A stretch of 64,000 nucleotides of DNA from Tubiluchus corallicola (GCA_030141605.1 JAQGDQ010000121.1:434001-498000), one strand, 5' to 3'; shown: positions 86 to 22,733, counted from the first letter of the stretch. Notes: generated by a model not told the origin, from the letters alone. A program made the numbers and translations.

Positions 86-103
86 CCTTTGATCTCGCCG
101 CCA
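86..103 (+). promoter_or_regulatory. Bipartite TCF/LEF element (HMG site CCTTTGATCT plus Helper GCCGCCA) upstream of Axin
   Basis: CCTTTGATCT at 86-95 and GCCGCCA at 97-103, 1 bp apart. They match the TCF HMG-box consensus (SCTTTGATS) and the C-clamp Helper consensus (GCCGCCR). Located ~3.5 kb upstream of the Axin ATG. Confidence 0.6.
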
Positions 104-1425: not shown

Positions 1426-3574
1426 AGCCCTGCCCTTTCTCCTTTTCTTTCTTTTTTGCACACAGCAAATAGAATGATTTACTACTAGTTAGGTTTTGGT
1501 ATGTGAATTACCGGGGGTAAGTGGAAGGCCTGAAAAGCTCTGATTGGATCTAGTGCATTAACGCTTCACGATATGACTTAAATTGTAATGTAGCAATACG
1601 CTCCCATTTTTTATATTGTTGTCAAAAGTCGCCAGCACTTGATAATTTCACATCCTCTGGGGTAAATTCCAATTTTAGCAACTACACTCAAGCTAAATTT
1701 CGCGGGCATACTCATCACACACAGTACCTGCAAATAACTGCCAACTCAGACTGTGCTGTTTCATTAAAAAGTTTTCAATTGCCCCCTCCCAATGTACATT
1801 AGGTATTTAACTATAACGTATTTGGTTATCAAAGTAAATTTCTGTATTCAGTGGCAGCACAAATTAGACTTTACTAATTTAACTAACCTGAGTTGATGAA
1901 AAATCTTGCCCCCTCCCGCAATTTCAGCAGTACGCGTTCGACCTGCAGTTTTTACAACCTGGCAATATACAAGTTGTGGCTGAATTACTCACTTTATAGC
2001 GCGAGCGAATGCTATTGGGGCCTTTGATGTTGCCGATATTATGAGCCATTCCTGTGCGAAATTACGCAGTCTGGCATTAGCCGTGCTAAAATGCAATAAC
2101 ACAGTAAGGTCGGAAGTTTATAGCCTCACTATTGGTGGTGGTGCGTGAACACTGAATGTGCGCATTTTGAATAAGAATTTTAATGTGCATGAAACTTGGG
2201 TGGTAGCACAGGTTTAGATTAACAGAATAGAAGCGCAATTATTATAGCCAAAGCTTGAATGATGTTATTTTCTGTTTTCTTCGCTTGTCCGCGCTTGGTA
2301 CGTTACTATTGTCTTCTGAGTGATGCGTATCTTCTCAGAGTTACTGTATTTACATTTTTAATGTGTTGCTTTTTGTAAACTGAAAATAGTTGCATCTTGT
2401 TACTTTAATGAGACTCTAATCGTGTGTGGAATCTGTTTGAGTTACTTAATCAAGCAATTTTACTCATATTTCAGTTACTTATTTATATTCAAATGCTGCT
2501 GCTGTATTACCTACATTTATTTATTTATTCAGTTTTTTGAATACTGCATTTCAATAGTTAATGCACTTCTGACAATAGAGTCTGACACGTGGCCGAATGG
2601 TTGGATATTTTTGGTCTATAATGCTAAGTACGCTAATATCTATCATATTTTCTAGATTTTTGTCAGTATTTTCTGTTGATACTTTTCTGATTTTTATTTT
2701 AAGTTATCCTAGATTTCTATGTACAATATATCTGTACAAGAATGGCAGCTAACTTTTCTTACAAAGATTATTGAAGTGAGCTTAGATATTGCAGTGCTCA
2801 TTTTGCTTGCTGTTATACTAATAACTATCCCTCTTCTATAAATTACATGCCACCATCTATAATAATTTGAGTAGATATTTCACCTGGCAGTTGCTGGATA
2901 TGTAAACATCAGGCGGTAGATATGATTTACAGAGTAAACTTCCAATGTCAATAATCATTCCAGTTCGTGCAGTTTGAGTTTATGGTCCTGTCTTGCATTA
3001 ATCGTTCACCCAGTTTATGGATGGTCGTCAGCCGTGGTCGGAGGGCAATTTTAGCTGTTTGGGAAGGAGTCTAACTTTGGACTTTACACACCAAGGCTAT
3101 GTTATGTAAAACCTGTGTCAGGGTGACCAGTTGTACCATTGTTGCAACAGTTTTTACCTTTATTATTGTTGTTGGAACATGACTTCAGTTTTCATTTTCC
3201 GATTGTATGGCCGAGATTGTGTAGTGGTGTTACATACAGTGCCTCTGGTGATAATATAAATTGGCTTTGATTGTAAAATAGGCTTGCATTGTAAAATTTT
3301 TTGGATTAATTTTGGCTGTCGTTAAAAACACCGGGATTATAAATTTCTGTGTTATGCTGTTAATTATAATAGTGTGTATTCTTAATAGTTAAATTACCTC
3401 CAATTTGACTAATGAAATGATACTCATTTAGGTTAGGTTAGTAAAACTGTAAGATAGGCTGTATGACAATCATTTTTAGTTCATTTGAAAATTTAGGTTG
3501 CTTCTACGAAATGTCATAATCAAAAAAAAAATTAAATTTCATTTTGTTTTGCAGGTTATAAGTTGACGGTTGCT

Positions 3575-3649
3575 ATGTTACTCCACAATTTGCTGCATCA
3601 CGGAGTTCCCTCCTCTAGTCGCGGTGCTGATACCGCTCTGCAGCCATGA
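3575..3649 (+). other. 24-codon upstream ORF whose TGA overlaps the Axin ATG
   Basis: ATG at 3575 reads MLLHNLLHHGVPSSSRGADTALQP to TGA 3647-3649; the Axin ATG is 3646-3648. It lies downstream of the strong acceptor ttttgttttgcag (exon start 3555). Confidence 0.55.
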
Positions 3650-6600
3650 GTCAGGTGTCACACCAGTTCAAGGAAACTGCACCTAGACCTCCCGTTCCAG
3701 GCAAGGAAAACATTGAAGAAAAGAGAGCCGCTGCAAAGTCAGTCACGGCCAGCAAAGGATCATGGTGCGAAGGTGGTGTGTCTCCAGCTGCAACACCACG
3801 ACGCTCAGCGCTAGATCCTAGCGCCACAATGCAGCGTGATGCGGTGCCACCTAGTGGAGCTGATGTTGACCCTCCGCTCGGGTTTGAACCAGAGGGGAGT
3901 GCCAATACCACGCCTCCATTTACTGAGAATAGTACGCCGCCATATTTGCGTTGGGCGGGTAGTTTACGTAACCTGCTGGACGATGAAGATGGTGTACAGA
4001 AATTTATGAAGTTTTTGCGGCAAGAGAATAGTGAGAACTTGCTGTTGTTTTGGTTTGCCTGTGAGGGTCTGAAGAAGCAACCACCCGATGCTACTGACCG
4101 TATACAGCAGTGCATACGGGTGATATATCGGACTTATGTACGCTCTCACGCCGAGCAGGCCATTAACATCAAACCCGAGCTGAGGAAGAACATTTCGGAC
4201 AAAGTGAATAAAGTGAAAGACTTGAATCAAAACTTATTCAACAGTGCTCAGTGTGAAGTCGAAGCTGTACTAGAGGGCAGCATGTACCCATTGTTTCTGA
4301 AATCGGACATTTACCTTCAGCACGTGCAACACGTGCAGAATGGATCGGATAGCCCAAAGACGGGTGAGCATTCCAGTGGTAGTCGGTCGAATGGTGAAAC
4401 TCGAACTGCCCAGGGTGCACTGCCCACGGTACATGAAGACTCAGAATTACAAGTGGAAACTCAGGGGACTGGTGACAATGTGTTGCCATTAACAACGAAG
4501 CATTTATTAGCAACTAGGTTTCGGAGGTTCACAGAAGCCAATGCTGGGTGAGTACTTAGTTTATATAAATTTTGCTAAAACATAGTCACAAATCACTTCT
4601 ATAGATAGCCGACCTTAGACGGATCTGGTGCCATTTACCACCCAACATTTTTACACAATTCCTGGAGTAAGTAGCTACGTGTGGCGCCAGGTCGTTGGAA
4701 AGAACAGGAAGTAAGATAGAAGCCAACGAAGCCACTACATCTGGTCCATGTTATGCGCAGATCTCTTAAAACAGTCCGCGGCAGATGAAGTAAACCCGTA
4801 TGTTGTGGCTTACATAAACCATAGCTGCCGTACATTCCTCATTTCTGCTGGACAGAGCCACCCATAGAATGTGAAATTAAGCAGAACTTGTTTTCGCTTA
4901 GCCACCATTCATAAGAGTGCTTGCCGGTATTCGGAATGTTCAAACATAAATAAAACTAAAAACCAATTTCTTAAGCTGTACTTTTCTCCAATAGTGCCGA
5001 TAACTACTTGCCCTGCTTTAATAGAATCAATGCTACTAGTGTTTACATTAAAACATTTCCAGCATTCTACCAATTCTGTAAATTGTGATCTTCACTTACG
5101 AAACCCACACCGAATTCACATTTTAGCCTACTAAGGCATTCACGCCTATTCCACTTCAGAGTCAAATTCATTATAATGAGAATGGATGATGTTATACACA
5201 GACTGTAGGTCGTGGATAATACTACTTTGAATTGCAGGCAGTGGTGCAGATTTGCTGTTTGTTGCTTGCGTTTTCTCTCTACCCTTTCAAATTTGTAAGC
5301 ATGAAATGACATCTTAGGACAGACATTCTGCTGGTTTCTTTTCCTTTGAAGCAGATTCACAACTCTCTATCACCTTGAGGCTTGCACCTTCTGTACATTT
5401 CTATTGAGAATTGCATGACTACAAATCATCAATGGCAAACTGTAGTATTGAATCCATAACACAAGCGAAATCCACTCACCAAACAGCTCAATTGCCAGTA
5501 TTGGGTGAAGCCTGAGAGGCTGTCTGTAGATGCGTATATAGGATTTGTTATCCTCACCCTGTTTTTGCTATTCCTTGTCATTTGAAGACTCAAATAGGAG
5601 GTGAATGTAATGCATTTCAGGGTAAATCACATTTATTGGCAATACTAATTTGTGTTGCAAGTATCTGTGACTTTTTCTAAGGCTTTGTTACCTAATACTG
5701 ATATTTCTACTAGCAAGTACAATGGACGTAAGAAATAACGCAAAAATTAATACCTAGGAGAAAACTAAACAGAAAAATAATTAAAACAATGTTCTTTCTT
5801 TGCTAAAAATCATAAAAACAAAATATATGTAGATAACTTATTTAAAGTTTACCAATCACCAGCTGTGCAATGTGAATTACTATTATTACAACGTTAGACA
5901 TTACGGCCTATACGTATCTTGAAGTCCATCTTCCATACTATAAATTAGAGGTATTCGAGGTTTGGACATTGGACAGGGGTTCGGGATGCACATTGAGATC
6001 GGAACTTTTTGACCCGTGCTATATATATAGATATATTTATATATATTGCAGAATCATACTATTAAATTAAAACAATTGTTAGAAAGAATAAAAATTTATA
6101 CGTATGGCCTACTAACTGAGAAGCGTTATCTGCTTGGGCGATTTTTAGATAGGAAAGATACTAGTGGCTGTGCCTGTTAAGTTAAGAATGATACAATATA
6201 TTTTTTGTAAATTGTGCCAAATTTAATGTTAAAGTACACCCGGATCAGAAGCATCACACATGTGCCACGGAAAGGTATTACGGTAATCATGCATTTGCTT
6301 TAAATTATTTACAAGACATTTTAAAAAATAGCGTTAATAATCATGTTGATAGCAATTTTCACAAACGTTAAGCTTGATCTCCCGTGCAACCTTGCCAGAA
6401 GTGTACCACGTTTGGAAGATTTTGAAAACTACTAGTCTGTTTTGCTTTTCCTTTTTAAATGTGTATGCTAAGTTTTGTTGAAACACACATCACACAAATA
6501 TTTAATAGCCGCAGTTTATCGTGCAGGCATGCACATTTGTTAAGTTATTGTATTATGCCATGACACTATTTGCACCACAGGAGTGATTGTGTTTGTCACA

Positions 6601-9600
6601 TAATACCCAAGTTTACAAATTTACATAGAAAAGTTAATATAAATTATACTTGAAAATTTATTATATGATTTCAGAATTTTTAGTTACAGTATAATGAAAG
6701 CTAAAAGATTCTGATAACTCGTACCGATTCCTAGAAATTAATATTGTAAATTTTCACTTTCACAGGAAATATTTAACCGCGAGCAGTCGGGTGCCAAATC
6801 CGTACCATGTCACTTATTCGTCGTACATCCCTGTATCAGCCCAGGACAGTGAGCAGCAAAGTTTGTCCAGTGATGCACAAACAGATGACACGTTATCTCT
6901 CACAGACAGTAGCTTGTGAGTATGGTTTCTTTTCATTCATTTCTTTCTATCATTTCTAAGTTTTCAGTAATTTCAAAGGCAAAGAAAGGCACATTCCATT
7001 GTTCCTGTATATCTTTCATCGCCCATAAATAAAAAAATGACGAAAATGAACATCCGATGTAATAATTCTGCAAGTCATTCGCAAAAGCAATATGTTCCCA
7101 TTAAGTGTACTTTCAAGTTTTGACTTTAGCTGTGGCCGAAAATTTGTATACTGTATTTCCTAAAAGCGTTGATATCCTAGTAGTCTCGTTTGATCGGATG
7201 AGTTTTAATTCTTCAACTGTGTACGAGAGTGGGATTTTGGAAAAAATTTTGAACTCTTTTTTGCTCAGCTTATTATATTTACATGTGATTATCAAACTCA
7301 CACCCAGTAGCAATTGATTTTTCCGCATGTAAAATCTGCTACTGGGGGTGCTTCACCAGAGCGCCTGCTTGGAATTCAGAGCTGCACAAGAGTTTTCTTT
7401 GATGGAACCAATTAATGGCAAAAAACCGCATCGCTGTGTAAATAATCGCGAAACGATTTTACTTCAATACTTCCTTACGCGAAGCTTGCGTGATTAAGGA
7501 CCCTCTTGTCCACATGTGACTGAACAGCGGTATATATTGCCTCCCCTACGCTAAACAAAGCTGGCATTGTTGTTGCCGGTTGGCAATTACAGCACAATAA
7601 TTTCGTGTGTTCGCTCGGTAGCAATTTTAAGTGGCAGTACAAGTTTTCAGGCGCCGCCGCTGCAGCTTGCTTTTGCCACCCACTATCGACAGCAACCCGG
7701 TATTTCAGATTCAGCCGGAGGGTTTTCGACTGACAAACTTTTATAGCTTGCTTTTTGCGGCATGATTAAAGCGTCTAGGCGGCCCCCGGGCGATGGCTTT
7801 ATGCTGCTTCTTTGTTACCAGATCGCGAACGAAAAACTTCGTGCGGCTTTGAGAAAAAATTCGCTTGTGGATTACAGAAAGCCTGGCTATGATTAAGAGC
7901 AGGAAAGCGCTGGCTGCGCATTCATTAATGGAAACAGATTATCATCCAGGCTCTGTACAGGCTCACTGACTGAGCAAATATTTCCACAAACCAACTCGAA
8001 AAACAGCGAAAGCAGGTTGCACAAACAGCGACCGGGTTTCTCTCCTTCCTATCCCTCCACTACCAAAGAGTTGAGAAAACAAAATCCCCCAGCCTCTCTC
8101 TTCCCATTTTGTCCGCATTTCCTTTAGTAGAAACGTTGTTATTTCATCAAGTAGCTACGTGAGGCTGAGAGTCGACTTTCTCGTTAATAATATTTTTGAT
8201 TTGAGCTAAATTTGTAGTAGTAAATTCACAAAGGTATAAATGCAGTCAGTTGTTTAAATTTTATTGTGTGTACAATGTAACCGTTGTTTACTTATGTTGG
8301 CGGACTGTATTAATGAAATTCGTCTTTGGGCTATCTGACTCACCTGCAAAGTCGTAACTAGTGTTTAAAATTTTGATAAGTCTATAAGCTAGTATTATCG
8401 CTCATTGTGCTCCTTGAAGAAGGAAATAAAACCATTTGCTTCTAGAAAAAGCGTTTTTCTGTCCAAATATACATTATACCAAGTATCCAACACTTGAACA
8501 TGTTTCCATAAAAGTCTGCTTGGTTGAGTTTTTGAGATTTCCTGCTTAAAACGGCCCGTTTGGAAATTAGTTTCTGGGTATATACTTACTGTGGGGCGGA
8601 TCCAGTCTGTGGTTAGCCGAATAAGATAGTAAGTCTGTGATAAAATGGAATAAAACCAAACATATTTGTGGTGTCCAGTATACACGTCAAATTATTAAAG
8701 GCATCAGTTATCAGGTGGCAATATTATTGTTTCTAAGGGAAATGTACACACATCCTGTGGGTGTGATCCACCATCTCTAGTGCACGCTCAAAAGTGCTAA
8801 CCAAATAACCGAATGCTTGGCGGCTAGATGAAAGCGATTACAGGGCCATGACTTATCGGGCAAGCTAGTTTTCCAGTTGGCGAGTTTAGCTAGTGGTTGC
8901 TATTAGCCACACAGTATTGCTTGTACAGCAAGTTCACTTGGGCGAATAAAAAGTCTGGACAATAGCCGTGGAAATTCTTTATACGAACGAATAAATAAAT
9001 ACCGATACTTATTCTTAATAATTCTGTTGAGTAAAAAAATTTATAAATATCGTCAAAATTGTATTTTGTCACGAATCAGGATCCTTACAGCAATCTTTCT
9101 CAGTTTGCAACTTGACATATCAGTATTTAGTTTTCTGGTCCGCGTGGTTATCAGTTTAGTTGCCTTATCGTATACATGGTCTCCCTGATATGAAATACTT
9201 TATGAAATGTGGGAAAGTTTGGTACAAGTAAGCCTGCCACCGGCAAATTTGATACAGGTAAATTTTATAAAAGGTAAATTTGGTACTCTGATCTTTAGGT
9301 ACTAGAAAAATTTGTTATAGAAAATGTTTGGTAGAAGGAAAATATGGCACCAGGAAAAGTTCGTACTAGGAAAGTTTGGTAGTGGAAAATTTGATACTAG
9401 ACAGAGAAGAGAGCATATGTCATTACAATATAATTGCAAGAACTACAGTAACAAAATAACAAATGTAATGACGACAGCAATGATGACGATGATGATAACA
9501 AGAACAGCATGCAAGAAACAAGCAAACAACAGCAGCAACAACAAAAACTATAGCAACAACAGCAACGGCGATGGCAACAACAATAATGGCAATGATGACG

Positions 9601-12600
9601 ATGGTGAAGACCACAAACACATCAACAAGAAGCAAACGTACAAGAACAACAACAACAACGCCAATAAAGCGGTAAATATAACAACAGCAAAAGAACAACA
9701 ACAATGCTATAGGGATGACAGCAACAAAATGACTTAACGTAACAATAGTGACAGCAGTGATAACGATGATGATGATGGGTGACGATGACAACTCTCGCTA
9801 CAAAGGAGAGGTAATAAACAGACGAACAACAGCAGCAGTGCAGTTGAATGAAATAACAAACCACAGACAAATAAACGAACAAAAAAAACAAGTGAAAAAA
9901 TGCAATAATATGAACCTGTATAACTTCTTCGAATAGGTTATATAAAAGATACTTTTGTTGTACTAAGCTTTCCTTGTTCACAACTTTCTCTGCGTCAAAT
10001 TTTCCTAGTACCAAACTTTCCTAGCACCAAATCCTGTTCCGTACCATTTTACCTTTAGGTACCAGTTTTACATGTACCAAAAATGCTTGTCAAAAATTCT
10101 AAAAAGTAGATTCCATTTTCAGGTATGTATAAATATCCTACAGTAGTATAATGTATCTATAATATGAGAATATCGAATCGATTGTTCGTCCGGGGTGTTG
10201 AGCAAAGGGGGGCCGTTTGATCCAGATATTAAAGCTTGGGTTAGGTTCTAAAGTTCTGCATGCGGTTAAAAATACGCGAAACCGTTCAAAACGACCAAAA
10301 GTTCTTTTTTTTACAAACACCAAACAGTAACATACAATAAGTAACACTTTATGATTCAGTAGCTCTGCTGCTCAGATTGAAAACACTCTATTTTCCCCGG
10401 TTGGGTAAAAAAATAAGTGTTTTCATTCTCATTTTTTTCATTTTGTATTAGGTTCTGTGAAGTGGTTTACTGATACATTGTTTGCTCATTCACGCAGAGT
10501 TCAAGTAACGTTTATTGTATATCTACTACAAGCCTACAACTGATCTTATCGTCCTGAATTTTTTCTACTGGAAGCTGCTTCTCCCTGTGAAAGAGAAACC
10601 CGGCAGGTTATATTCGCCTCCTGCACTGGCCATGTGTGTCGGTTGTAATCTGATCCGGCCTCTGCTATTTGTGGCCTCAAGCCTCTCTTTGCTCTCACCG
10701 CATCTGAATCCTCCTCCCTCAACACATGGTCCGGTGATTCAGATGTGTGCATAGCACCTCTTTATTTTACCATTCCATTCCTCTGTTGACAACTTTAAGA
10801 ACTCTGTATTAGTAAGCTGGCTATTTACCCACTTGCTTTGTTGCATATGGTGTGTATGACCTTGGTTTCTTGTATGATAATTAGAGTTGTTAGACTGCTA
10901 CACTAAAAAAGCTGCTTTTCTTGTGGGCTGTGATGCAAGTTAAAACAATCTTGTAAAACGGGGCAGCATACGATGCCATGCTCTTGTTTTAGTTAGAAAA
11001 TCCTCCAGAATCACTTCATTCTGTTTGTACAACTTATAGAAATTGCTCCTGTAATCTTGTGCTAGGTGGCTTGTGTGAAGAAAAATAACTACAAAATACG
11101 GGATGATCCTGACTTGCAAAATTGCTTTTCTGGCATTATTCTTACTTCAGAAATGTTTGATTCATCCAAAACTTTTGTCAAATATAGAGTAGAGCGAAGG
11201 TGAATGCGTTCGCTTATCCTCTGGGTTAAATGAATGCGTACACTTAAAATTAATGTAACCTCCATCTAAGTATTGTACCTTGTGTCCCTATAATTTAAAG
11301 GCTAGCCACTTGCATATAAATATACGAAACGATACCCTTCATAACTAACAAATTCATTTTCTTTTTTTCTGATCAATAATCTGGCTAACTATGGTGTGTT
11401 ATGTGTGTTATGAATACAAATGGTTGTCTGTATGCCTGTGCGTGATCTGGCGCGTTGCTAATGCAAACAACACGTGACGTCTGTGCGTGCTTGTTTGTTA
11501 GCAAGACAGGATGCATTTTGTGTGCGCAGTGCGCACCCAGTATAATCAGATGTCTGAATTTGCGTCTGCATTTTTAAACGTTCATGAATAAAAGTCTTGC
11601 CAACAAATGTCTGTAACTCATGGACCGCACATCAGTACACATGGTGGCAACCACTTTTGTGAATCTGAAGCTGACATCAGTTTCAAGATTTTCTTGTGCC
11701 TAGTGCCTTTGATTTTTATGAAAACCCTATATTGTAACTGCCATTATATTGATACAGGTATCAGAGGACGTTAATTAAAAATTCCTATTTGTAATGGTCT
11801 TGCAAATACTATACATGAAAAGGTTAATTTCATATGTCAGTGACTCCTTACACTCTCTACAATTAACACTAACTTGATGTCACACTGCAGCTGAGTACTA
11901 TATGCTAAGCCAGCTTGCAGTGTGTACAACTGTATAGAAAAAGTATCTTTTGCCAACAATGTAATTCTAAAAAGTTCAATTTAATATTTCAGAGATGGCA
12001 CATCCGGATTTGGCCGAAAAAAGTATCAGCGATTGCAGCAACGAGCAATTCAGAGAAGTGCACGGCAAAACCGTGACTGTTCACTGCATCATACTATCAT
12101 ACCGGTATGAACATTATGCAATGCATGTCATTTAATGACAAAAAACTCATTCTATGACCTAGGCTATCTGGTACCATTAGTCTCTTGTAAAGCTTTCTTT
12201 CGAAATGTTCACAAACAACAAAAGGTTGGTGTAAAACCAAAGGTGTCAAATTAGCACAAAGACAAAGCTAAAAGTATCCATTCCATAAAAAACTGGTACA
12301 AAAATGGAGACGGTAAGACAGATAATGTTTTGCCAAAGACTGTGCAGTCTGAAAAAGTAAAGTATTTAAAGCTGAAATTCAATTTATAGGTAAGGATTTC
12401 TGAAAATAACTTCTGATACCACTCTTACACTGTTAAAATATTTAAAACTTAAATCAAGGCTAGTTTGACATTTCACAACACTCTAGGAGCAAAAGAACTG
12501 GCAAATTCAAATTAAATGAAAAATATGTACTACTCCATTATAAAACATGTTTGACAAAGTTCATCTGCAAATTACAGATAAAGGTGCCTTCCAAGCCATC

Positions 12601-15600
12601 TTCACTCATGTCACTTTTATTACTGACAAATAAGAAAATTTTACAAAATTCAAAACATTGAGTTATTTTGTTGGGAAAATTAATTCAAGAGAGCATTTCT
12701 ACATCTCATTACAAAATAATTGCAACAACAGAACAAATGTAATAAATGACAACAACAATGTCGATAACATAAGCTGCATGCAAGAAACAAACAAACCCAT
12801 TAGCAGCAGCACCAATTCTTCAGCCTTGAAAATTATTTTTTCGAGCTCATTTTATTTTGCAGTTTTCATTTTTTGCACTATTTGTGGTCTTCACTTAAAT
12901 TTTTGTCTACATGCGCTTTAAATATCTAGCCACCAGCACACACAGTTCATCACATCACATATATTGATGATTTTTCACTCATGGCACTACACTGCTTTTT
13001 TAACTAAACAACCCTTGAATAAACAGCTGTGCAAACTATTTAAAAAACACAGAAATTTGGTATGTAGTCCAGCCAAGTTTGGCATACTGAAATATTGCCT
13101 GTTTTATAAATGGTCTTTGCAGAATGTTCTCACAGCATGCAGTCGAGAGTGGTAACCTTCAAACTTGTATTGAACTGCAAACTGTGTGCTTGCCTGCCTG
13201 CCTGTCTACTCAGTTTCACAAGCTTTTGTGCTGCTTTGATGATAATAGTCGATTAAATTATACCTGTTAGTCAACCCTGTGGTATAATAACAAGCTGCTA
13301 ATAATGATGGAGATGGTATTCTCGCAGGAAGCGCTAATGGACAGAGTGGCATGTGCTGCTGCCCAACCTCGTTATCTGTCCAAGTCCTCGGTGCACCTCA
13401 TCTCGTTACAATCATCATCTATTATTGACAAAACTTCAAAGACACCGCCACGCTTCAATAAGGAAAATTTGTCAATATATGGCGAGTTATAGAGGCTCGC
13501 ACGAGCGGCAAACTGTATCCGAGATGCGGCTAATTGAGTTAGGTGCGGAAACGCGGAAAGACAATAAATATGCGGAAGATCAAAGGAGCCGCAAGCTGCC
13601 GGGTAATAAGCTGTAAAGCAGGAGAGTTGTGTAATAATATGAACCTCGCAGTTCAAAAGCATTGAGCGCCAACCGGCGGAAAAGTTGAGATGTAATAAGC
13701 AGGAGGATGTAGCTCCATCAATGATGATCAAAGGCCAGCGAGAAATTATCTGCGGAAGGGTGGCAAATTTAAACTTGATCAAAGACAATGTATGCACAGC
13801 AACATCAAAGCCATGGCACATCAACTGATCTGAGAGTGGTAAAGAGATCCTGCAGCATGTTTTTAGTTAATAGAGAATGATTTTGGACTCGCCGCTGATC
13901 AAAGAGCAAGACAGGATGCGTTGGATTACGTATCACCTGTCACAAAGAGATCAAAGGAAAAGAAATGGAGATCAGAGGGACACTTGTATGACTAAGAAAG
14001 AGTTTTGAATATGAGAGTGAAGCGTCTGACATCAAAGTATATGTGATGTCTAATTAGGGCTATCGTTTGACTGAATAAGTCTGTCAAAGAAAGTCACACT
14101 AAGGAAAATCAAAGTTGCATGTCAAAGAGTTTTCTGAGTATTTTGACTTCAAAGATTTTCCTTATGTTTAAAATGTCTGTTCTGACACTTTGAAAGAGAT
14201 TTACCGTAGTGGTCAAAATTTAAGCAGTGTATATTTGAAGTGTGGCTGTGTAAGCTATGTAAATGCATGCTGTAAAAATGTACTATAATAATAATAAGAA
14301 GAATACATACATACATACATACTAGTAATGATGCTCCACTACAACAATTGTACTTTGTCTAAATTTAAATAGATGAGTTTTTGACTAATACTGTGTATAG
14401 TCTTAGATATTTGAGCTGATTACGAAATTGGGAATGCTTATCAGTAGAAATTTCAAAGAATGGTCAATTGATTTCTGGATCATCTCTTTGAAGTCGCCGA
14501 CACAACTGTGATACAAGTCTGCCTAACAAATATTAGAGTGATCAATAAAAGTTGATGCTATTGTGGATCTGATCGCCATTTTCGGTTCTTTAAAAGTCCT
14601 CTGAACGAGAATGCAAACTCACGGTGACTAATCATGTAATGGCACGTTCAGATCAGAGGCTTGTCAAAAATGATTAAGCCATGATATTTGGAACTATAAT
14701 GATTAGTGTACATTACTACTAGGTTAATGTACAATGCCATTAGCCAGCTAAAATATCTATGGTAGAATATTTTCTCTTGAAATGTTGGTTAATTTAGTAA
14801 AGGACTCTTAGTTTTTAGATTAATGATGTGTTGTTTCGAGAATGTACATTCAGCTTATGCCATACAATTATTTTGTTGTAGAAAACCTAAGTGTGTTTAT
14901 ATTACATATAAATTTGATGTGAAATTTTAAATAAAGAAAGTGGCAACTTTTGTGAAAATACGCAATGTCTGAAGCTGTTTTTGTTGTAGTTGTTGTGGTT
15001 GTTGTTGTTGTTGTATTAATAATTGATCCTTTGCATGGACACTACTGTCTGCAAACTAAAAAAGTGCATTTCTTCCTGCACTTTGCAGAATTTTCTTCCA
15101 AGTTAGCAGCTAACATAATTAAGACATAATAGCACTCTAGCCATTCCTTTAAGATTTAACCATTTTGCTTCCTTGTATGTTGTTCTCAAACAATGCCACT
15201 TTCCCATGGAAATGACACACAAAACAAGTAATGCTTCTGTTTTGTTTATTATATCCTTAAAATTTGCAACATCTAAGATGAAAGCAAAATTGAAGCCACT
15301 ATTACCATCACAAAGCTTAACTCTGATTACCCGTTTTATTTGGCTTTTACATGCCTAATCTCGTTTCTATATCATTTGCTTTATTCGCATTCGTTTTGGT
15401 TTTGTTGGTTCCACGAAAGATTAAAACTTCAGACAGCTTAGTAAGTGCATCTTTGAAAAGGAATTACAATATCAAAGACAATTTTAGTGCGTTCAAAGTG
15501 GCTATCAATGCCGGATTATAGTTTGATAGGCTTGTAAGCGATTGCCAGCTTTAGGATGTTAATCTTGCACATGGAATTAGCTTTATTATAAAATTGAAAG

Positions 15601-18600
15601 GAAAATACTGAACGCAAAAAGTTGCAGCCATCCCCAATGTTGTTAATAATAAGTGGATATGCAAGAAAGAAACAAATTTGTATGTTGTAGTAATATTTCT
15701 TCTCCAAAATGAAGAAAAAATACCTTTACGTTTTTTTCACTTCAGAGAACGGAGCATATTCCTAAGGACTATACGCCTAAAGATCCTAGTGAATTTGCAG
15801 CCGTGCTCATTGATAAACTGAGACGGGTTCAAAAAGAACGTGAAGCTGAGGAAAAAATTCAGGAAGCTCTCCGCGGATTGCAAAAGGTGGAGTATATACG
15901 TATAACAATTAATAATTATCTTATTAATTTCAACTAATTTGCATCTAAATAAACTTCTTCACTATGATGTTAAAGGTAAATTGAAATAAATAAATAATGT
16001 TCTTCAAAATCAATTTATACAGGCACTTCAAAGCATTTATTAAAACAACTTTTATTAAAAAACGTTAAGTTACAAATGTTTAAAAACGTTTATTGTTTTA
16101 ATAAATGATATTTTTCTGATGTCAGATTATCAGCGTTTGTTAAAGAGTGGAGTTTAACAGCCTTAAATCCTTTTTGGGTGGAAATTATTTGAATGTTTTA
16201 AATTAGCTTTGCACTCTTAAAAAAGTCAAAATGCATTAACTTGAAAAAGTCCTTTAAGCAGATCATATGTTATGTTGAAATATGTCTTCTTTCTATTTTA
16301 TAATCATCTATCTTAGTTTTTTCCCGTGAAATTTCTTTGCTGACTGTTAAAAACTTTGCCATATCTTTGATCTCCTTTTTCACTAGTCTTTCTATTTGAT
16401 CATCTCACTCAACTCACAGAGTTCTAAAGTTCTACCGTTCCCTTTATTGTCGCTTAGAATAGTTAGGCTGCAGCTTTGTCTCTCGGTGACAAGCCAAAAC
16501 TTTTGCCACCGATTCTTGTTGCACTGTGAAGGCTCTGCCTTTGAAGTGTACCTTTGATGTGTCTGCGGCTTCATTGATCTGATAATTTCCTGGGCTTGCG
16601 TCACAGCAGATGATAAATAAGCTGGTGCAGCCTGCTTGATAGTTATTGTCATAGTGCCGGCGTTGTAAAACTCTCCGTTAACAACAGACATAAGTGTCAT
16701 GAACAGGTCAAAAATATTTGAAAATGTTGCAGGTAAATTTTAAAATAGCCTCTGCATTACCTCTGCATTGAAAACCAAATAAAAATAAAATCACCGGTTA
16801 TTTGTCATAGAGCAGTGATATTTTCCAAGTTTTCGTTAATTATTTTATTTTCTCTTTGTAGCAGTTGGACGAATCGACTCACTCGATACATTCAGAAAGT
16901 GGTGAAGCAGTTTCCAAGCGCACGCCGACCACACTAGTCACCAAGTTTCCTTTGCCATCATCGATGATCACTACTTGCGAAAGCACTGAAGAAGATCAGA
17001 GCATATTAGACGAGCATGTCTCTCGCATATGGGATAACTCTGCCCATCACACGCCGGCCAGATCACCTGGACATCGGTCGCCAAAGTCAAAATCGCCTGA
17101 TCGCCTCCTCGCTTTGGCTCGTGGACCAGCTACCCTGCCCTTGTCACACAAACATTATCACAAAGGCCGGAAAGATTTTGGATCAGTACTCTCCACTGAT
17201 TCGGGCGTAACCTGTGGAAAAGAAGTCATCCATGAGGATCAACATAAACATATACATCACTACCACTATTACATTAAGGAGTACAAGTCTAAACATGAAA
17301 TGGACTCCCGTTCTTTGCCACAGTTTAGCGGTGCTGCTGGGCAGGAGGCATATAGAGCTCATGTGCTCGCACATGAACGGCAATCACGAGATGCATTGAA
17401 ACGCTCTGGTGGTAAACAGAAAGCACATTCAATTGCCAATCCTTCTGATGCAGGCAACTTGATTGATAGTGGAGTGAGTGTCGTGAGTGGCCAAGATTTA
17501 GAAGTGTCAAGCATTCCCAATCTAGATAATCCAATAAACGAAAGGTAGGTCATAACTGTTTTAACTGTTCGTGACTGCTTCTTTCTGAAATTGTGTTTAA
17601 ATTTTCTTTCATAAGTGAACTTTTCGTAAAAATGATTTCACCACTTGTTTCACATTTATTTCGTCATTTATAGGGTATATGCTTGGATGGTCAATAGTGA
17701 GAAGTACGGCCTAAATGATGGCGTGTTAGGTGACACAGAATCACTGGCTCACATGGAGAGGGAGTCAGCAGTTCGACATAAACGTTCACAGATGAAACCG
17801 TCCACAACACCTGCCTCCCCCTCACCTCTCCGCCACATGTAAGTGCCAGTTCTACATTTGTTCTTGGGTCTCAGTATCAGGGTTGATACTGAAACTGAAT
17901 TTACAAACAGAAACCGATACCGAACCGAAACATTTTTCCAAAACCAACCACTATTAAGACTGAAAAAAGAAAATTCTAAAATAAGTAAAATATTTTGTTT
18001 CCTGTTTGTTTGCTTTTATTTGTTGTGATGCAGAATTACTGATAAACAATTCTACTACAAAAAGGACAAGAAGTTTTGTAATATAGAACCTCAAGTTTGA
18101 TGGAGGGCTTACCTTAGGAAATGTGTTATAATGTTTTTGAATTTAAGTATCCTTATTGATTAATGTTAAAAGATCATGAGGCTTCATTAAAAATAAACAA
18201 TTTTTTGTAGATATTTTGTTGCCTATATTTCATAAATTATAAAATTCAACGTGATTTTGCTGAAGTAAATTGGTTTGATATTTCGGTTGATTGGGCCTGG
18301 AAACCTTAAAACTTCTGTCGTGAGCATTGCAGATACACCAGTAAAAACGCGTTACACACTGTTATACACTCTTTATTTGAACTAATTTGGCCAAGATTTT
18401 TCAGCGTTTTATGACATCTAGGAGAAAAGAAAAAGTAAATTGGATAAATACTTGTAAAGCCTCGGAAAATGCTACTGAAAGTTATAGGAAATTTCGGCTG
18501 CGAAATTTGGTAAATTTCACCGAAAGTTAACCGAAAGTGCAGTTATCAGCAAACTGAAATGAAAATTTCGTTTCGGTAACATCCCTGCTCAGAATGATAG

Positions 18601-21600
18601 ATATAGTTTCTATTAAAAGATTATTAGCCTTAAAATTTAAATTTTTTTGGCCAGCAGTGTTAGCCAACATTTAGTAGTCATTATCAGGTTTATAAAGTTG
18701 TAGAGGAAATTTTGTGTAATGGCATTGTAATGGTTACGTTACAGCTTGCAAAAGAAACAGCCAGTCCTTACGTCCAGGTCCGGGTCACTAGAACGTGGTG
18801 GCACTCTATCACAGTGGACAAAGCCAGGTGATGTAGCCCAAACTCAACCAATGCAACCTGTGCCACAGGTATGTGATTCCTTATAAAGCTGTTGTGAACA
18901 TTTTTGTATAATATTTTTTTACAAATCTGGTTGCCACTTCCGTCTCTTACTTAGTTACTTGCTCCTTTTAGTTCTTACTTGTTAGTTATGTGGACTATTC
19001 AAAACCTGATATGCTAAAATTATTTGATCTAATATGCGTCTTAGTAATGCCAGTAACAACCTTCTGATTTTCTTCATATGTTTGTTTTATGTCTGTATGT
19101 TGTTAAAAAAATCCTATTTTTTAGCCTTTCGCCAGCCACATTTCAACACTAGCTTCTCAAAACGTGCTGTTTGCTTTGGATGACCACAGTTTTTTTACTA
19201 TGCAACTTGTTGGTCATGACAATGATGTACATGAAAGAAAGTTTACTACAGCATAATGCTTGCTATTGTGAAGTCAGACTTTATAAACTTATGAAGCTAG
19301 TACTTTATATTTCTTGCTGCACATTGTACCAGTAACATTTTCATGTGATTGCGTCACAATTCAACTGTTTTATCCATATTAGATTGTAATTTGGCTTTGA
19401 AATTGTTTGCAACATAAGGACTTTATGTTGGAAAAGCAAGGGCTTACGACTTTGCAAACCAATTGAAGAGCTTCTCGTAGGCTTTCAAACAACACATTTA
19501 TTAGTCGTAAAATTCTAATAAGCTGCTGAGATCTGGGCACATAAAAGAGTCGGCATTTTGCTTTGGTGAATAGTAATGGCTTCGGCACTTGTGTTTTTGC
19601 GAAAATTGACAGAAGTCCCATTTCTTTCTTTCACATTTAATACCCGAACAATTTGTTTAATTGAAGACATATCAAAGTGTGATGTTTTTTGCAACAAACA
19701 AAACTGTTGTAATTTTGAATTAATTCAAATTGTAAATTAGTTGATAATTCAAAAACTTTTGTCTGTTATTGTAGGCTTCATGACTGCATTTAGCAATGAA
19801 AGCAATTTGTGTCACAAGTGCTGCCCTTGTCTCTGCCTTGAAATACTTTGGTCAATTTATAAGCAGTAATGTCATCTTGCTTGTCAATTTAACCACAAGA
19901 CTGTAAGGGTAATTATTTGCTAACATTTGCCTTACTTTCAGGAAATTTCGCCAAATGTTCCATCATCAAGTACAGATAAACAGCTTGAAGAGGCAAAGAA
20001 GAGACTAGAAGATGAAACAAAAGCTAAAATCAAATCTAGGTTAGTATTAACTATTATGTCATATTGTGCTTGACCGTCCAAGTTTTCATCCAATAGTGTT
20101 TGACTGTTATATCAAATCTCAGTACTAATGGGGCGTATAAAGTCGTGCTGTGGCTGTCATTTAAATTGCCAATTCTTGGAATTGAGAATGAGGTATTAAA
20201 TTTTGGCAAATTACCTATTATAGAGAAAGGATTTGGCTGTCATAAAACTAGCATGTTATTAAAAAAGATAACGGTTGGGTTTACCTACTAATACTATTGC
20301 ATTTTGTGCATTTTTTCGAATATGTTTAGGTTTTAATCAACTACCAGTTTTCAGCAAATTTAAAATTACTTTTCAACTTTTTGTTGTAGTAAAAAGAAAG
20401 ATAAAAAAGAAAAGTCTTCTCTCTCGAGCGGAGTAACATCTACCGGCACAACTTCTACAGTGACATCTGGTGGAGATTACACGATTATTGGGTACTATTT
20501 CTGTGGTGATCCTGTACCATACCGAACCAAACTGCCTGGCAAATCTATCACGTTGCGTCAGTTTAAAAATTTGGTTACAAAGAAGGGGAATTACAAGTAA
20601 GTATGCTGTTTTTGTTTCTTTGTTGACAGTTTTAAGGGACACTAATTGCGGATTTGTAAATACCGGTAAGATCAAAAAGTTGGAATTTTGAGTTGTCTGC
20701 ATGGTATATTGCTATGTTAGGGAGCTCTGTAACGCCCTACCGACTTGATAAACTCCCCAACGAATACTAAACACTTTCTCATTTTAAAAGCTGATATTTA
20801 ACAATGCTAATTTTTCAGACAAACTTAAAATTGCTTTCTGAATGTTTTGTTGCATGCTGGGATGGTAAAACACTGATGTCATGATATAACTTCTTGGCTC
20901 AAACTATTTAAACGAGTAACACGTTTTTCTTCTTTTAATCAGTGGTACTGGCTGATGTAACCTTTTTTCTAATTTTTTTAACAAACTTTTTACTTATGAA
21001 TTTTTTAATCTTCTATTTAAAATTGCTGACAAAAATTGTCCAAATGTTTTGGACTTCCCTTTGTAAAGATTTACAAACCAGCAATTTAGAATTATTATAA
21101 TATATTGAAAAATGTTCTTGTTAATTTACAAAATTAAATTCCTTAATTATTCATTCATTTCACTTTTCGCCTTTTTGAAGAATTTTGTTCAGTTATGCTG
21201 AAAGTACTAACGTATTCGTGAAACATTATTTTTATTTAATAAAAAAAATTTGGTGTCAGAATGTGAATAATATTGTTAATTTACATTTTGAAAAACAGAA
21301 TTTTCCAACTCATTGTTGTGATATGTAGATGCAATTCTTACATTTTGCAAAAATAAAAAATACTGAAGTTCTTTATTTTATTAGGAATAATAATTATGAT
21401 GGTGTGGTATTTTCTGAAAGCAGCTAATCTTTAAATGTTAACATTTCTCCTGCGGCACTTTTTAACACGAGTTTTAAATTTTGCAATTTTAGTATGCTTT
21501 TGCTACTGTTCTGTGGTTTTATCTAGGCGATAGTCGAATTACAGAGCTTGCTGGTCAGTAATATTATTGTTCGTAGCTGCTGGGCATTTTCAGCGTACTA

Positions 21601-22733
21601 GAGCTGCTGCTGCTGCTTAAAGTACAGCCTGTGCGCACATTGTATGTTAATCTGTGTTGCACTCTTTGTCTGCATGTAAAACTAGCTGTCGTGTTGATCC
21701 TAGCCTCCAGGTCAACCTACGTCATGATTTGGGCTGTGTTATTAAAGGAGAAATTGTGTCGTGCTATTATTAGGGCCTTGTGCAGAGAAAGTGCAAAGAA
21801 AAACCTTTTTAATTCAGTTCTGTCGACAGTTTTAAATTTTGAATTAAAAAATTAAAATCATATTGTAAACTGCAAAATTAAAAGGTTTATAAATTTTTAA
21901 CCATACTTTTATTAGACTTTGGAAAATAGATCTTCACTGAAGTTAATTAACAACACTCAGTGTTAATGTCATTGTTGTGGTCTTTTGGGTGGTCTCATTT
22001 AAAACTGACCATAATATCGGTCAGGGCTGGATGGTATGTTACTGACCAGCAAACCAGGGTCCTAATGTCTACACCTTGTTATTTAGCCGGTTTGTCTGTC
22101 TGTAATTTAACAAGATGGCTTACTCTGTGCTTATTTGCCTTCAGGCCAATAGGGCTGTTTCTGCTTAAATAAATTACAGATGGAGCATTTGTTAATAACA
22201 AGGCAGCCCCATAAGCAATTGAGGGGCTTGTGGCATAGAAGCTGTTTGTTGCAATACTAGTGCCAGACAATGTTAACTGAGATTTTGTACATATATTTAA
22301 AGAAAGCTTACAAATGGTAACTGCTGCTAGATAATAAAAACTTCCTTGATAATAGAAACCTTTTTTGCACGTTTCAATTTTTTGTTTAGGCCGAAAGCAA
22401 AAAATTTTGCAACTTCGCAGTTTTTGTAGATAATTATATTATTTTCCAACTTCAAATGGAATTTGCTGAATTTCTTCAAAACTGTTTTTCTTTGCCCTGT
22501 GCGGATAGACTGATTTATTAACTAATGTTGTGTTATGTCAGAAACTTTAGGCTTGCGCTTTGATGAATTTGCTTTCATTTAAATTTTAAATTTCTTAAAT
22601 TTGCAGGTATTTCTTTAAGAAGGCAAGTGATGAATTTGGTACGGGTGTTGTAAATGAGGAGATTTCTGATGACAACGAAATTCTTCCGTTTTGGGAGGGT
22701 AAAATATTTGCCAAGGTTGAAAACATCGATTAG
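3646..22733 (+). CDS. Axin: Axin, beta-catenin destruction-complex scaffold, ~901 aa, 10 coding exons
   Basis: Exons 3646-4547, 6766-6915, 11993-12104, 15746-15886, 16865(or 16862)-17544, 17674-17838, 18745-18868, 19942-20039, 20390-20596, 22607-22733. All introns are GT-AG and phase-consistent (2706 nt). Motifs: tankyrase-binding RPPVPGKE and GFEPEGSA; RGS domain (TPPYLRWAGSLRNLLDDEDG...FWFACEGLK); DSEQQSLSSDA; GSK3-binding helix PSEFAAVLIDKLRRV; beta-catenin-binding QSILDEHVSRIW; QLEEAKKRLE; C-terminal DIX domain (YYFCGDPVPYRT...EEISDDNEILPFWEGKIFAKVE). Confidence 0.97.
9213..10100. mobile_element. Foldback/MITE-like element: inverted arms of ~15-bp tandem subrepeats around an AAC/GAT-rich core
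   Basis: The left arm (9213-9400) repeats GGAAAATTTGGTACT-like units. The right arm (~9950-10100) repeats the reverse complement (e.g. TTTTCCTAGTACCAAACTTTCCTAGCACCAAA). The core is low-complexity. Boundaries are approximate. Confidence 0.7.
12690..12812 (+). repeat. Partial second copy of the core of the 9.2-10.1 kb element
   Basis: GAGCAT...CATTACAAAATAATTGCAACAAC...GCATGCAAGAAACAAACAAAC aligns by eye with 9411-9535 (GAGCATATGTCATTACAATATAATTGCAAGAAC...GCATGCAAGAAACAAGCAAAC). Confidence 0.65.
13234..14492. promoter_or_regulatory. Candidate Wnt/TCF-responsive intronic enhancer in Axin
   Basis: ATCAAAG at 13579, 13727, 13778, 13804, 13898, 13950, 14031 and 14108; CTTTGAT at 13234; TTCAAAG at 13435, 14148 and 14452; CTTTGAA at 14188 and 14486. 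Two are the optimal AGATCAAAGG (13577, 13948). Helper-like ACCGCCA (13444), GCCGCA (13588) and GCCGC (13891) adjoin HMG sites. Confidence 0.75.
15451..16570. promoter_or_regulatory. Secondary TCF/LEF site clusters flanking the Axin GSK3-binding exon
   Basis: CTTTGAA 15451, ATCAAAG 15471, TTCAAAG 15492, TTCAAAG 16027, CTTTGAT 16365, CCTTTGAAG 16538 and CCTTTGATG 16551, the last followed by GCGGC at 16565. Confidence 0.5.
17878..18587. mobile_element. Non-autonomous hAT-type DNA transposon (MITE), ~710 bp, in an Axin intron
   Basis: TIRs CAGGGTTGATACTGAAAC and GTTTCGGTAACATCCCTG. 8-bp target-site duplication CTCAGTAT (17870-17877) / CTCAGAAT (18588-18595). Subterminal ACCGAA repeats. Confidence 0.8.

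What the first reader, a model, noticed from the sequence alone, without database searches (positions are those of the whole stretch)
13234..14492. Dense co-oriented TCF/LEF site array in an Axin intron: candidate Wnt negative-feedback enhancer
Seen: 14 WTCAAAG/CTTTGAW sites in ~1.26 kb between coding exons 3 and 4. Eight are co-oriented ATCAAAG within ~540 bp (13579-14114), and two are the optimal AGATCAAAGG. The flanks differ between sites, so this is not a tandem repeat. A rough estimate at ~36% GC gives ~0.4 sites per kb. Known: this is the TCF/LEF HMG-box site, and vertebrate Axin2 is a direct Wnt target controlled through promoter and intronic TCF sites. Inference: this invertebrate Axin is itself a direct beta-catenin/TCF target, and the block is a ready-made endogenous Wnt reporter.
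Basis: partly seen in the sequence, partly recalled or inferred. Interest (0 to 1): 0.85.

Follow-up and report, generated by a model that had tools for sequence, protein, structure and literature searches.

The report
Wnt-response site cluster inside Axin intron
An intron of this invertebrate's Axin gene holds a dense, non-repeat cluster of binding sites for the Wnt-pathway factor TCF, with similar site-rich stretches in some other invertebrate Axin genes, so it is likely a switch by which Wnt turns on its own brake, a known circuit whose DNA control element has not been tested here.

Summary
There are 14 WTCAAAG/CTTTGAW sites in 13234-14492 against 0.74 expected. The real core is 13435-14154, with 12 of 12 TCAAAG on one strand. 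A spliced contig places the block in intron 3 of a 902-aa Axin that groups with arthropod Axins on a long branch. It is not a tandem or piled-up repeat, and I found no RNA or protein gene in it. In a diverged run with the same species label, the core differs by 3.5% against 9.0% elsewhere in the intron, and 6 of 6 checkable ATCAAAG sites show no listed change. Best reading: a likely beta-catenin/TCF feedback enhancer (0.72). No binding or expression data exist for it. Wnt-induced Axin is already reported in amphioxus, Platynereis and C. elegans, so this is a new, unusually dense member of a known kind.

The parts
13435..14154 (+). Core cluster: 12 TCAAAG, all on the + strand (8 ATCAAAG, 2 TTCAAAG, 2 GTCAAAG), no CTTTGA; reads as CTTTGA(W) TCF sites on the - strand
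   Evidence: P(12 of 12)=0.005 after correcting for purine skew, but 0.059 for the 8 ATCAAAG alone
13545..13758 (+). Five co-oriented GCGGAAR motifs (13545, 13553, 13572, 13676, 13752) in the G+C/CpG-richer 5' part; factor unassigned (ETS-like GGAA core, recalled, or a degenerate Helper)
   Evidence: 5 here versus 5 GCGGAA in the rest of the window, Poisson 1.5e-8 among 2048 hexamers
13432..13450 (-). TCF site plus Helper-like ACCGCCA in AK1 arrangement
   Evidence: nomenclature from PMC4154663; not covered by X5
13576..13594 (-). Full-consensus TCF 11-mer CCTTTGATCTT plus Helper-like GCCGCAA in AK1 arrangement
   Evidence: lies at the end of the X5 contig, where differences are not listed
14485..14502 (+). 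TCF site directly followed by GCCGACA (FF0 HMG-Helper pair)
   Evidence: X5 shows 14502 A>T; the rest is not checkable
86..103 (+). TCF site directly followed by a perfect Helper GCCGCCA (FF0), 3.5 kb upstream of the Axin ATG
2021..2038 (+). Full-consensus TCF 11-mer directly followed by GCCGATA (FF0), upstream of the Axin ATG
13234..13240 (+). Outlying full-consensus TCF site in opposite orientation (GCTTTGATGAT)
3646..4547 (+). Axin coding exon 1 (tankyrase-binding and RGS domains)
   Evidence: Pfam PF16646, PF00615; homologues
6766..6915 (+). Axin coding exon 2
   Evidence: tblastn, AG/GT ends, X6 loose end
11993..12104 (+). Axin coding exon 3 (5' flank of the host intron)
12105..15745 (+). 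Axin intron 3 of the coding region (3641 nt), host of the cluster
   Evidence: X6 joint, skips 3641, GT..AG
15746..15886 (+). Axin coding exon 4 (GSK3-binding region by recalled homology)
16862..22733 (+). Axin coding exons 5-10 (beta-catenin-binding motif, DIX); the whole model gives 902 aa without an internal stop
   Evidence: boundaries of exons 7-9 chosen by frame and AG/GT only

Best explanation
The block is a cluster of TCF-type binding sites in intron 3 of Axin that likely acts as a Wnt-responsive enhancer, through which beta-catenin/TCF would raise Axin transcription and so damp Wnt signalling. Shown: the sites, their density and orientation, the host gene and intron, the non-repeat nature, and slower divergence than most of the intron. 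Inferred: TCF binds the sites through its HMG box. At a minority of sites the C-clamp also binds an adjacent Helper motif. Without Wnt, TCF would hold the element quiet; with Wnt, beta-catenin would convert it to an activator acting on the Axin promoter about 10 kb or more upstream. A second factor on GCGGAAR would set tissue or threshold. The block is likely the densest of several TCF modules across the locus (86-103, 2021-2038, 15451-16558).
For: Cluster far beyond chance. Flanks fit the extended TCF consensus: S at position 9 in 7 of 8 core sites and W at position 10 in 8 of 8, versus 16 and 23 of 37 outside. No repeat structure. One X2 contig covers 13049-14322, with no pile-up like the repeat bins (183 versus 1656 and 2734). 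X5 core 18 of 515 differences versus 77 of 851 in six other intron-3 pieces, Fisher p=6e-5; 6 of 6 interior sites show no listed change, and 14030 C>G moves one site towards consensus. The Axin locus outside the block has 21 sites in 21.5 kb versus 16 in 41.3 kb, p=0.004. Three of 35 Axin-locus sites carry GCCG at offset 0, local P=3e-4. Other invertebrate Axin loci: 4 of 24 loci of 5 kb or more have O/E 2.4-3.9, p<1e-3. GCCG at offsets 0-1 follows 10 of 257 sites versus 0.44 per other offset and 1 of 922 control-word sites. These are the offsets favoured in fly TCF-bound chromatin (PMC4154663). Axin mRNA responds to Wnt in amphioxus (PMC7292647), C. elegans (PMC4059243) and partly in Platynereis (PMC5996498).
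Against: No binding, chromatin or expression data for this organism. Conservation rests on one low-depth contig (depth 8). Against only the two least-diverged flank pieces the difference is not significant (p=0.14). The site-level test is weak: P=0.28 for no hit by 13 random changes, and 5 of 18 differences are not listed. X4 shows 13904 G>T in site 13898 (depth 2.8, may be an error), X5 breaks a GCCGC beside it (13893 C>T), and X5 replaces the segment holding site 14188. Helper pairing is not enriched in the block versus other window sites (3 of 14 versus 5 of 37, p=0.67). 19 of 24 longer Axin loci show no significant enrichment, including two that span the homologous introns (L026, L028), and no non-Axin control loci from those genomes were available. 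No helical phasing. In Platynereis, Wnt inhibitors did not abolish Axin expression and the activator had no effect at 7 dpf.
Confidence: 0.72

Rival explanations
1. TCF binds the block, but it mainly works otherwise: as a default-repression or Wnt-repression element, or on another gene of the region rather than as an activator of Axin.
For: Sequence cannot tell activation from repression or name the target promoter. TCF switch behaviour depends on site type (PMC3916239 passages). Most core sites lack a Helper.
Against: TCF sites are concentrated in the Axin locus and depleted in the other 41 kb (O/E 2.79 versus 0.79). Axin induction by Wnt is reported in several phyla.
Confidence: 0.11
2. The block is a neutral relic, such as a decayed minisatellite or a mobile-element fragment that happens to spell TCF sites.
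For: All 12 TCAAAG share one strand. Earlier scan notes report TCF-site arrays in other genomes that proved to be satellites (unchecked). No whole genome was available to search for diverged copies.
Against: No periodicity or flank similarity. No contig pile-up in X2. Slower divergence than most of the intron. The same motif logic recurs in unrelated Axin loci.
Confidence: 0.06
3. The block is a Wnt-driven internal promoter that makes a short Axin lacking the tankyrase-binding and RGS domains.
For: CpG rises at 13301-13700 (o/e 0.87 in the core versus 0.19 upstream). A TATAAATG lies at 13105 and candidate donors at 14250, 15441 and 15534. The intron sits just before the GSK3- and beta-catenin-binding exons.
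Against: The single X6 contig laid here joins exon 3 to exon 4 and no alternative first exon was seen, though this small run cannot show absence. Exon 4 has no Met.
Confidence: 0.05
4. Another factor with a CAAAG-type site (SOX-type HMG or an HNF4-like nuclear receptor; motifs recalled) reads the block, not TCF.
For: Two sites read GTCAAAG and one ACAAAG, off the TCF core.
Against: The enriched word is TCAAAG/GATCAAAG, with TCF-type flanks and Helper pairing in the locus.
Confidence: 0.04
5. The conserved stretch is an intronic non-coding RNA or an antisense coding exon, and the sites are incidental.
For: A 164-codon stop-free frame on the - strand (13372-13866) and a weak Rfam hit to SNORA38 (E=0.45, 20.8 bits versus a cut-off of 60).
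Against: No Pfam match. 6 of 7 X5 changes in that frame alter the amino acid when tested singly. Folding z=-0.31. The sites fall in different frames.
Confidence: 0.02

Closest known systems
Human AXIN2 Wnt-responsive elements: promoter-proximal Ax2 and the distal CREAX enhancer (PMC8421206, passages read)
   Same: TCF-site elements at an Axin locus that make Axin a feedback target of beta-catenin.
   Different: CREAX has four annotated TCF sites, uses CDX and CAG co-motifs and has no Helper sites. Here there are 10 core-consensus sites in 720 bp, a GCGGAAR co-motif and Helper pairs in the locus. No function is tested here. The Axin2 intron-1 sites are recalled, not read.
Drosophila HMG-Helper Wnt-responsive modules such as nkd-IntE (PMC4154663, passages read); C. 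elegans POP-1 WREs, Helper GCCRAnW (PMC3916239, passages read)
   Same: Intronic modules of Wnt feedback genes, with HMG sites paired to Helpers in FF0-2 or AK0-6 arrangements. GCCGACA and GCCGATA here fit the worm consensus, and GCCGCCA fits the fly consensus.
   Different: [quoted passage not shown] This block is denser than their examples, though only 3 of 8 core sites are full 11-bp matches and spacing is 26-148 bp. Most core sites have no Helper.
Wnt-responsive invertebrate Axin genes: amphioxus Axin (PMC7292647, passages), Platynereis Axin (PMC5996498, passages and one section), C. elegans pry-1 (PMC4059243, passages)
   Same: A single invertebrate Axin treated as a Wnt/beta-catenin target and feedback inhibitor.
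   Different: The passages read give mRNA responses, not a mapped intronic TCF cluster. Here the candidate element is visible but the response is untested.
Hydra Wnt3 and Sp5 promoters (PMC6338789, passages)
   Same: Natural clusters of TCF sites that drive Wnt feedback in an invertebrate.
   Different: Three clustered sites in 599 bp (Wnt3 activator) and five in 3 kb (Sp5); different genes, upstream position, lower density.

Membership tests
TCF/beta-catenin Wnt-responsive enhancer (W-CRM/WRE) | Several HMG sites near SCTTTGWWSWW, above chance | tested here: met
TCF/beta-catenin Wnt-responsive enhancer (W-CRM/WRE) | Non-coding, non-repeat position at a plausible target gene | tested here: met
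   intron 3 of Axin; no repeat, RNA family or Pfam match
TCF/beta-catenin Wnt-responsive enhancer (W-CRM/WRE) | Evolutionary constraint on the sites | tested here: inconclusive
   block 3.5% versus 9.0% (p=6e-5), but p=0.14 against the two best-conserved flanks; site-level P=0.28; one low-depth counter-change in X4
TCF/beta-catenin Wnt-responsive enhancer (W-CRM/WRE) | TCF/beta-catenin occupancy in vivo | not testable with these tools
   no chromatin data
TCF/beta-catenin Wnt-responsive enhancer (W-CRM/WRE) | Wnt-dependent, site-dependent reporter or gene response | not testable with these tools
   needs experiment
Bipartite HMG-Helper (C-clamp) element | Helper motif at FF0-2 or AK0-6 from an HMG site, above chance | tested here: inconclusive
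   met for the Axin locus (3 of 35 at FF0, P=3e-4) and for pooled Axin loci (10 of 257); not enriched within the block itself (3 of 14 versus 5 of 37)
Bipartite HMG-Helper (C-clamp) element | The organism's TCF has a C-clamp | not testable with these tools
   no genome held; expected for most invertebrates (PMC5996498 passage)
Axin family (host gene) | Tankyrase-binding, RGS, beta-catenin-binding and DIX domains in order | tested here: met
   PF16646, PF00615, PF08833, PF00778
Tandem or dispersed repeat | Periodic units, similar flanks or multi-copy pile-up | tested here: not met
   no genome-wide search possible

The most novel reading that the evidence does not exclude
Single-copy Axin genes of many bilaterian invertebrates carry a shared, sequence-readable Wnt feedback code: intronic and upstream TCF-site clusters plus FF0/FF1 HMG-Helper pairs. 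The Wnt-induced 'Axin2-like' state would then be ancestral and directly wired. This block would be a natural TOPFLASH-like enhancer, a kind two fly/worm papers say is not found in genomes, in a non-insect, ecdysozoan-like lineage.
Probability: 0.45. Interest if true: 0.68.

Novelty: new member of a known kind. Interest (0 to 1): 0.5.

Why it matters
Axin mRNA is widely used as a Wnt read-out in invertebrate embryos, but in the papers read here that rests on drug or mutant responses rather than mapped elements. This block gives a compact 0.7-1.3 kb candidate that makes directness testable and could serve as a native Wnt reporter. The comparison across loci suggests that direct Wnt control of Axin can be read from sequence in several phyla and may be weaker in others (the termite-like loci show none). 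That bears on when Axin-based negative feedback arose and where it was lost. It does not change the known pathway.

Tried and rejected
No whole genome is held, so there is no genome-wide background, copy search or TCF gene check. Sequencing-run search: no RNA holder listed; the only RNA-like run (X6) is a guess and small, so it was used only for the splice joint. Gaps in X4/X5 cover were not used as evidence. Tandem and direct repeats, Rfam (1 sub-threshold hit), RNA folding (z=-0.31) and the antisense frame led nowhere. Helical phasing of the 8 sites: no period from 10 to 11 bp significant (best p=0.09). GCGGAA is not shared by the other TCF-rich Axin loci (0-2 copies each), so it was rejected as a general co-motif. 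The transketolase search found nothing closer than 72% and did not place the organism. The first tree used a last exon off by one base and an unfinished search; it was redone with 21 rows by the quick method, with the same grouping. Single-mismatch neighbour words had median O/E near 1 but reached 3.8 in L046 and 3.0 in L006, so per-locus enrichment is not unique to the exact word there. Nine literature searches listed no paper describing a TCF cluster in an invertebrate Axin intron; the library lacks most subscription papers, and no supplements were read. I recall fly Axin as not Wnt-induced, but PMC4059243 states the opposite; this is left open. Scan notes near this place: none.

Full report
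Observation. The window holds 51 WTCAAAG/CTTTGAW sites; 14 lie in 13234-14492, exactly as reported. The other 37 give 0.74 expected in that length (Poisson 9e-14). 2000 local dinucleotide shuffles reach at most 5, and 20000 random placements of 51 sites reach at most 10 in any 1259 bp. Without presupposing the motif, TCAAAG is the top hexamer of 13400-14160 (12 versus 51 elsewhere, 4e-12 among 2048). All 12 lie on the + strand with no CTTTGA; this holds after masking and correcting for purine skew (P=0.005), though not for the 8 ATCAAAG alone (0.059). The real core is 13435-14154.

Host gene. Exon 1 hits Axins of nemerteans, a brachiopod, molluscs and insects at 44-45% identity at best. Ten coding exons from 3646 to 22733 give 902 aa without an internal stop, with tankyrase-binding, RGS, beta-catenin-binding and DIX domains. 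A contig of run X6 (RNA is the tool's guess) joins exon 3 to exon 4 across 3641 nt with GT..AG ends, so the block lies in intron 3. In a quick tree of 21 Axins, the protein groups with 7 rows (SH-aLRT 99): 4 named arthropods and 3 unnamed proteins. Its branch is long. A non-insect, ecdysozoan-like animal is my inference; no named non-arthropod ecdysozoan was in the tree.

What it is not. TRF finds only a 20-bp ATAC run in the interval. Flanks of the 12 sites are no more alike than random pairs (0.25 versus 0.26). In run X2, which may be the window's source sample, one contig covers 13049-14322 with 3 differences at depth 183, while two repeat-bearing bins of the same intron pile up to 1656 and 2734 (depth is no copy number). 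Rfam gives one sub-threshold hit, folding is unremarkable, and an antisense stop-free frame has no Pfam match and takes 6 amino-acid changes among 7 X5 differences.

Conservation. Run X5 carries the same species label but is diverged. Its contig over 13578-14092 has 18 differences in 515 bases (3.5%); six other pieces in intron 3 have 77 in 851 (9.0%), Fisher p=6e-5. Against the two least-diverged pieces alone, p=0.14. Thirteen of the 18 differences are listed; none hits the six interior ATCAAAG, and 14030 C>G moves one site towards consensus. By itself this is weak (P=0.28). Against the reading: X4 shows 13904 G>T in one site (depth 2.8, possibly an error), X5 breaks a GCCGC at 13893, and X5 replaces the piece holding site 14188.

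Grammar. Three of the 8 core sites match the 11-bp consensus SCTTTGWWSWW fully and two have one mismatch; mean flank mismatches are 1.0 versus 1.9 outside the block (consensus from PMC4154663 passages). A second motif, GCGGAAR, occurs five times, co-oriented, in 13545-13758 (5 GCGGAA elsewhere; 1.5e-8). It resembles an ETS site (recalled) or a degenerate Helper and stays unassigned. Helper-like motifs pair with 3 of 14 block sites (AK1 at 13435 and 13579, FF0 at 14486), which is no more than at other sites of the window (5 of 37, p=0.67). In the Axin locus as a whole, however, 3 of 35 sites (87, 2022, 14486) are directly followed by GCCG (local P=3e-4). The one at 87 carries the perfect fly Helper GCCGCCA, and the others fit the worm consensus GCCRAnW (PMC3916239 passage). 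Outside the block the Axin locus still has 21 sites in 21.5 kb versus 16 in the other 41.3 kb (p=0.004).

Other Axin loci. A metagenome scan returned 65 Axin-bearing loci. Of the 24 that are 5 kb or longer, four are strongly enriched: L060 (32 sites, O/E 3.9; 12 in 1260 bp just before the beta-catenin-binding exon), L046 (29, 3.6), L005 (18, 2.5) and L006 (22, 2.4). L005 and L046 share an assembly prefix, so this is three sources. L045 is at p=0.011, and 19 are at p of 0.05 or more, including termite-like L041 and L054 (O/E 1.2) and L026 and L028, which span the homologous introns. Best hits label L060 and L006 as bivalve-like. Their sites are of mixed orientation, unlike the window's core. 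L005 and L006 have no site in their first 4.0 and 3.1 kb and then a dense run before exon 1. Pooling all 65 loci and the window's Axin locus (291 sites, 257 after removing near-duplicates), GCCG follows at offset 0 or 1 in 10 cases versus 0.44 per other offset, and in 1 of 922 sites of seven control words; Poisson 4e-8, or 4e-6 when three related loci count once. I ran this test after seeing such pairs, but the offsets are those favoured in fly TCF-bound chromatin. Four related loci (L009, L022, L026, L028) share an alignable intron-2 element built on such a pair. No non-Axin control loci from these genomes were available.

Mechanism. Shown: sites, host intron, non-repeat nature, partial constraint, and the same motif logic at other Axin loci. 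Inferred from established Wnt biology: TCF occupies the cluster, beta-catenin converts it to an activator, and more Axin feeds back on the destruction complex. I put this at 0.72. Rivals: TCF-bound but repressive or acting elsewhere 0.11, neutral relic 0.06, internal promoter for a short Axin 0.05, another factor 0.04, RNA or coding element 0.02.

What is known. Human AXIN2 has tested Wnt elements (PMC8421206 passages). Axin is used as a Wnt target in amphioxus (PMC7292647 passages), is induced by activated BAR-1 in C. elegans, where the authors call Axin feedback likely ancient (PMC4059243 passages), and responds only partly in Platynereis (PMC5996498 passages and section 27). Hydra Wnt3 and Sp5 have smaller natural TCF clusters (PMC6338789 passages). 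PMC6956378 (passages) notes Axin auto-feedback, and PMC4267635 was seen only as a listing. [quoted passage not shown] Nine searches listed no report of such a cluster in an invertebrate Axin intron; the library is incomplete and no supplements were read.

Verdict. A real and probably functional TCF-site cluster. It works like a Wnt feedback enhancer, but membership is unproven because occupancy and response could not be tested. New member of a known kind; interest 0.5.

Noticed in passing
window 86-103 and 2021-2038: Two TCF sites directly followed by Helper-type motifs (GCCGCCA, GCCGATA) upstream of the Axin ATG; candidate promoter-proximal Wnt elements. An acceptor at 3554 suggests an unmapped non-coding first exon further upstream.
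   Followed up: partly
window 7300-8100: G+C- and CpG-rich stretch in Axin intron 2 (highest CpG count per 500 bp in the window), with a perfect Helper word at 7653 and a TCF site at 7397; possibly another regulatory block.
   Followed up: no
window 15451-16558: Seven more TCF sites around exon 4 (three in 15451-15498; two 13 bp apart at 16539 and 16552 beside a Helper-like GCCGCAG).
   Followed up: partly
L009 ~5960-6030, L022 ~3280-3350, L026 ~5270-5340, L028 ~5460-5530: Alignable element in Axin intron 2 of four related loci: an invariant 20-bp stretch, then a Helper-type motif and a TCF site.
   Followed up: partly
L060 339-1709; L046 7267-9284; L006 3085-5057; L005 3999-7178: TCF-site-rich intronic or upstream stretches in other invertebrate Axin loci, of mixed orientation.
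   Followed up: partly
window 26873-28732 (+): Transketolase encoded by one uninterrupted 619-codon frame next to the intron-rich Axin; 72% identity at best to known animal proteins. Possibly a retrocopy.
   Followed up: partly
window 54209-60897 (+): Multi-exon gene with Ig and FN3/cytokine-receptor-like domains (IL6Ra-bind, LIFR D4 hits): a class I cytokine receptor-like protein.
   Followed up: partly
window 46306-46710 (-): Exon of [11 protein letters not shown] repeats (24-bp tandem unit), resembling the N-terminus of penta-EF-hand proteins (recalled; no Pfam hit).
   Followed up: no
window 12682-12828 and 16006-16069: Two short multi-copy repeat pieces in Axin introns 3 and 4 (contig pile-up); the first resembles the ends of the low-complexity insert at about 9240-10080.
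   Followed up: no
runs X5 and X2 over window 11800-16200: A run with the same species label differs by 4-13% in intron DNA from the window, which may mean high polymorphism or a cryptic lineage.
   Followed up: no
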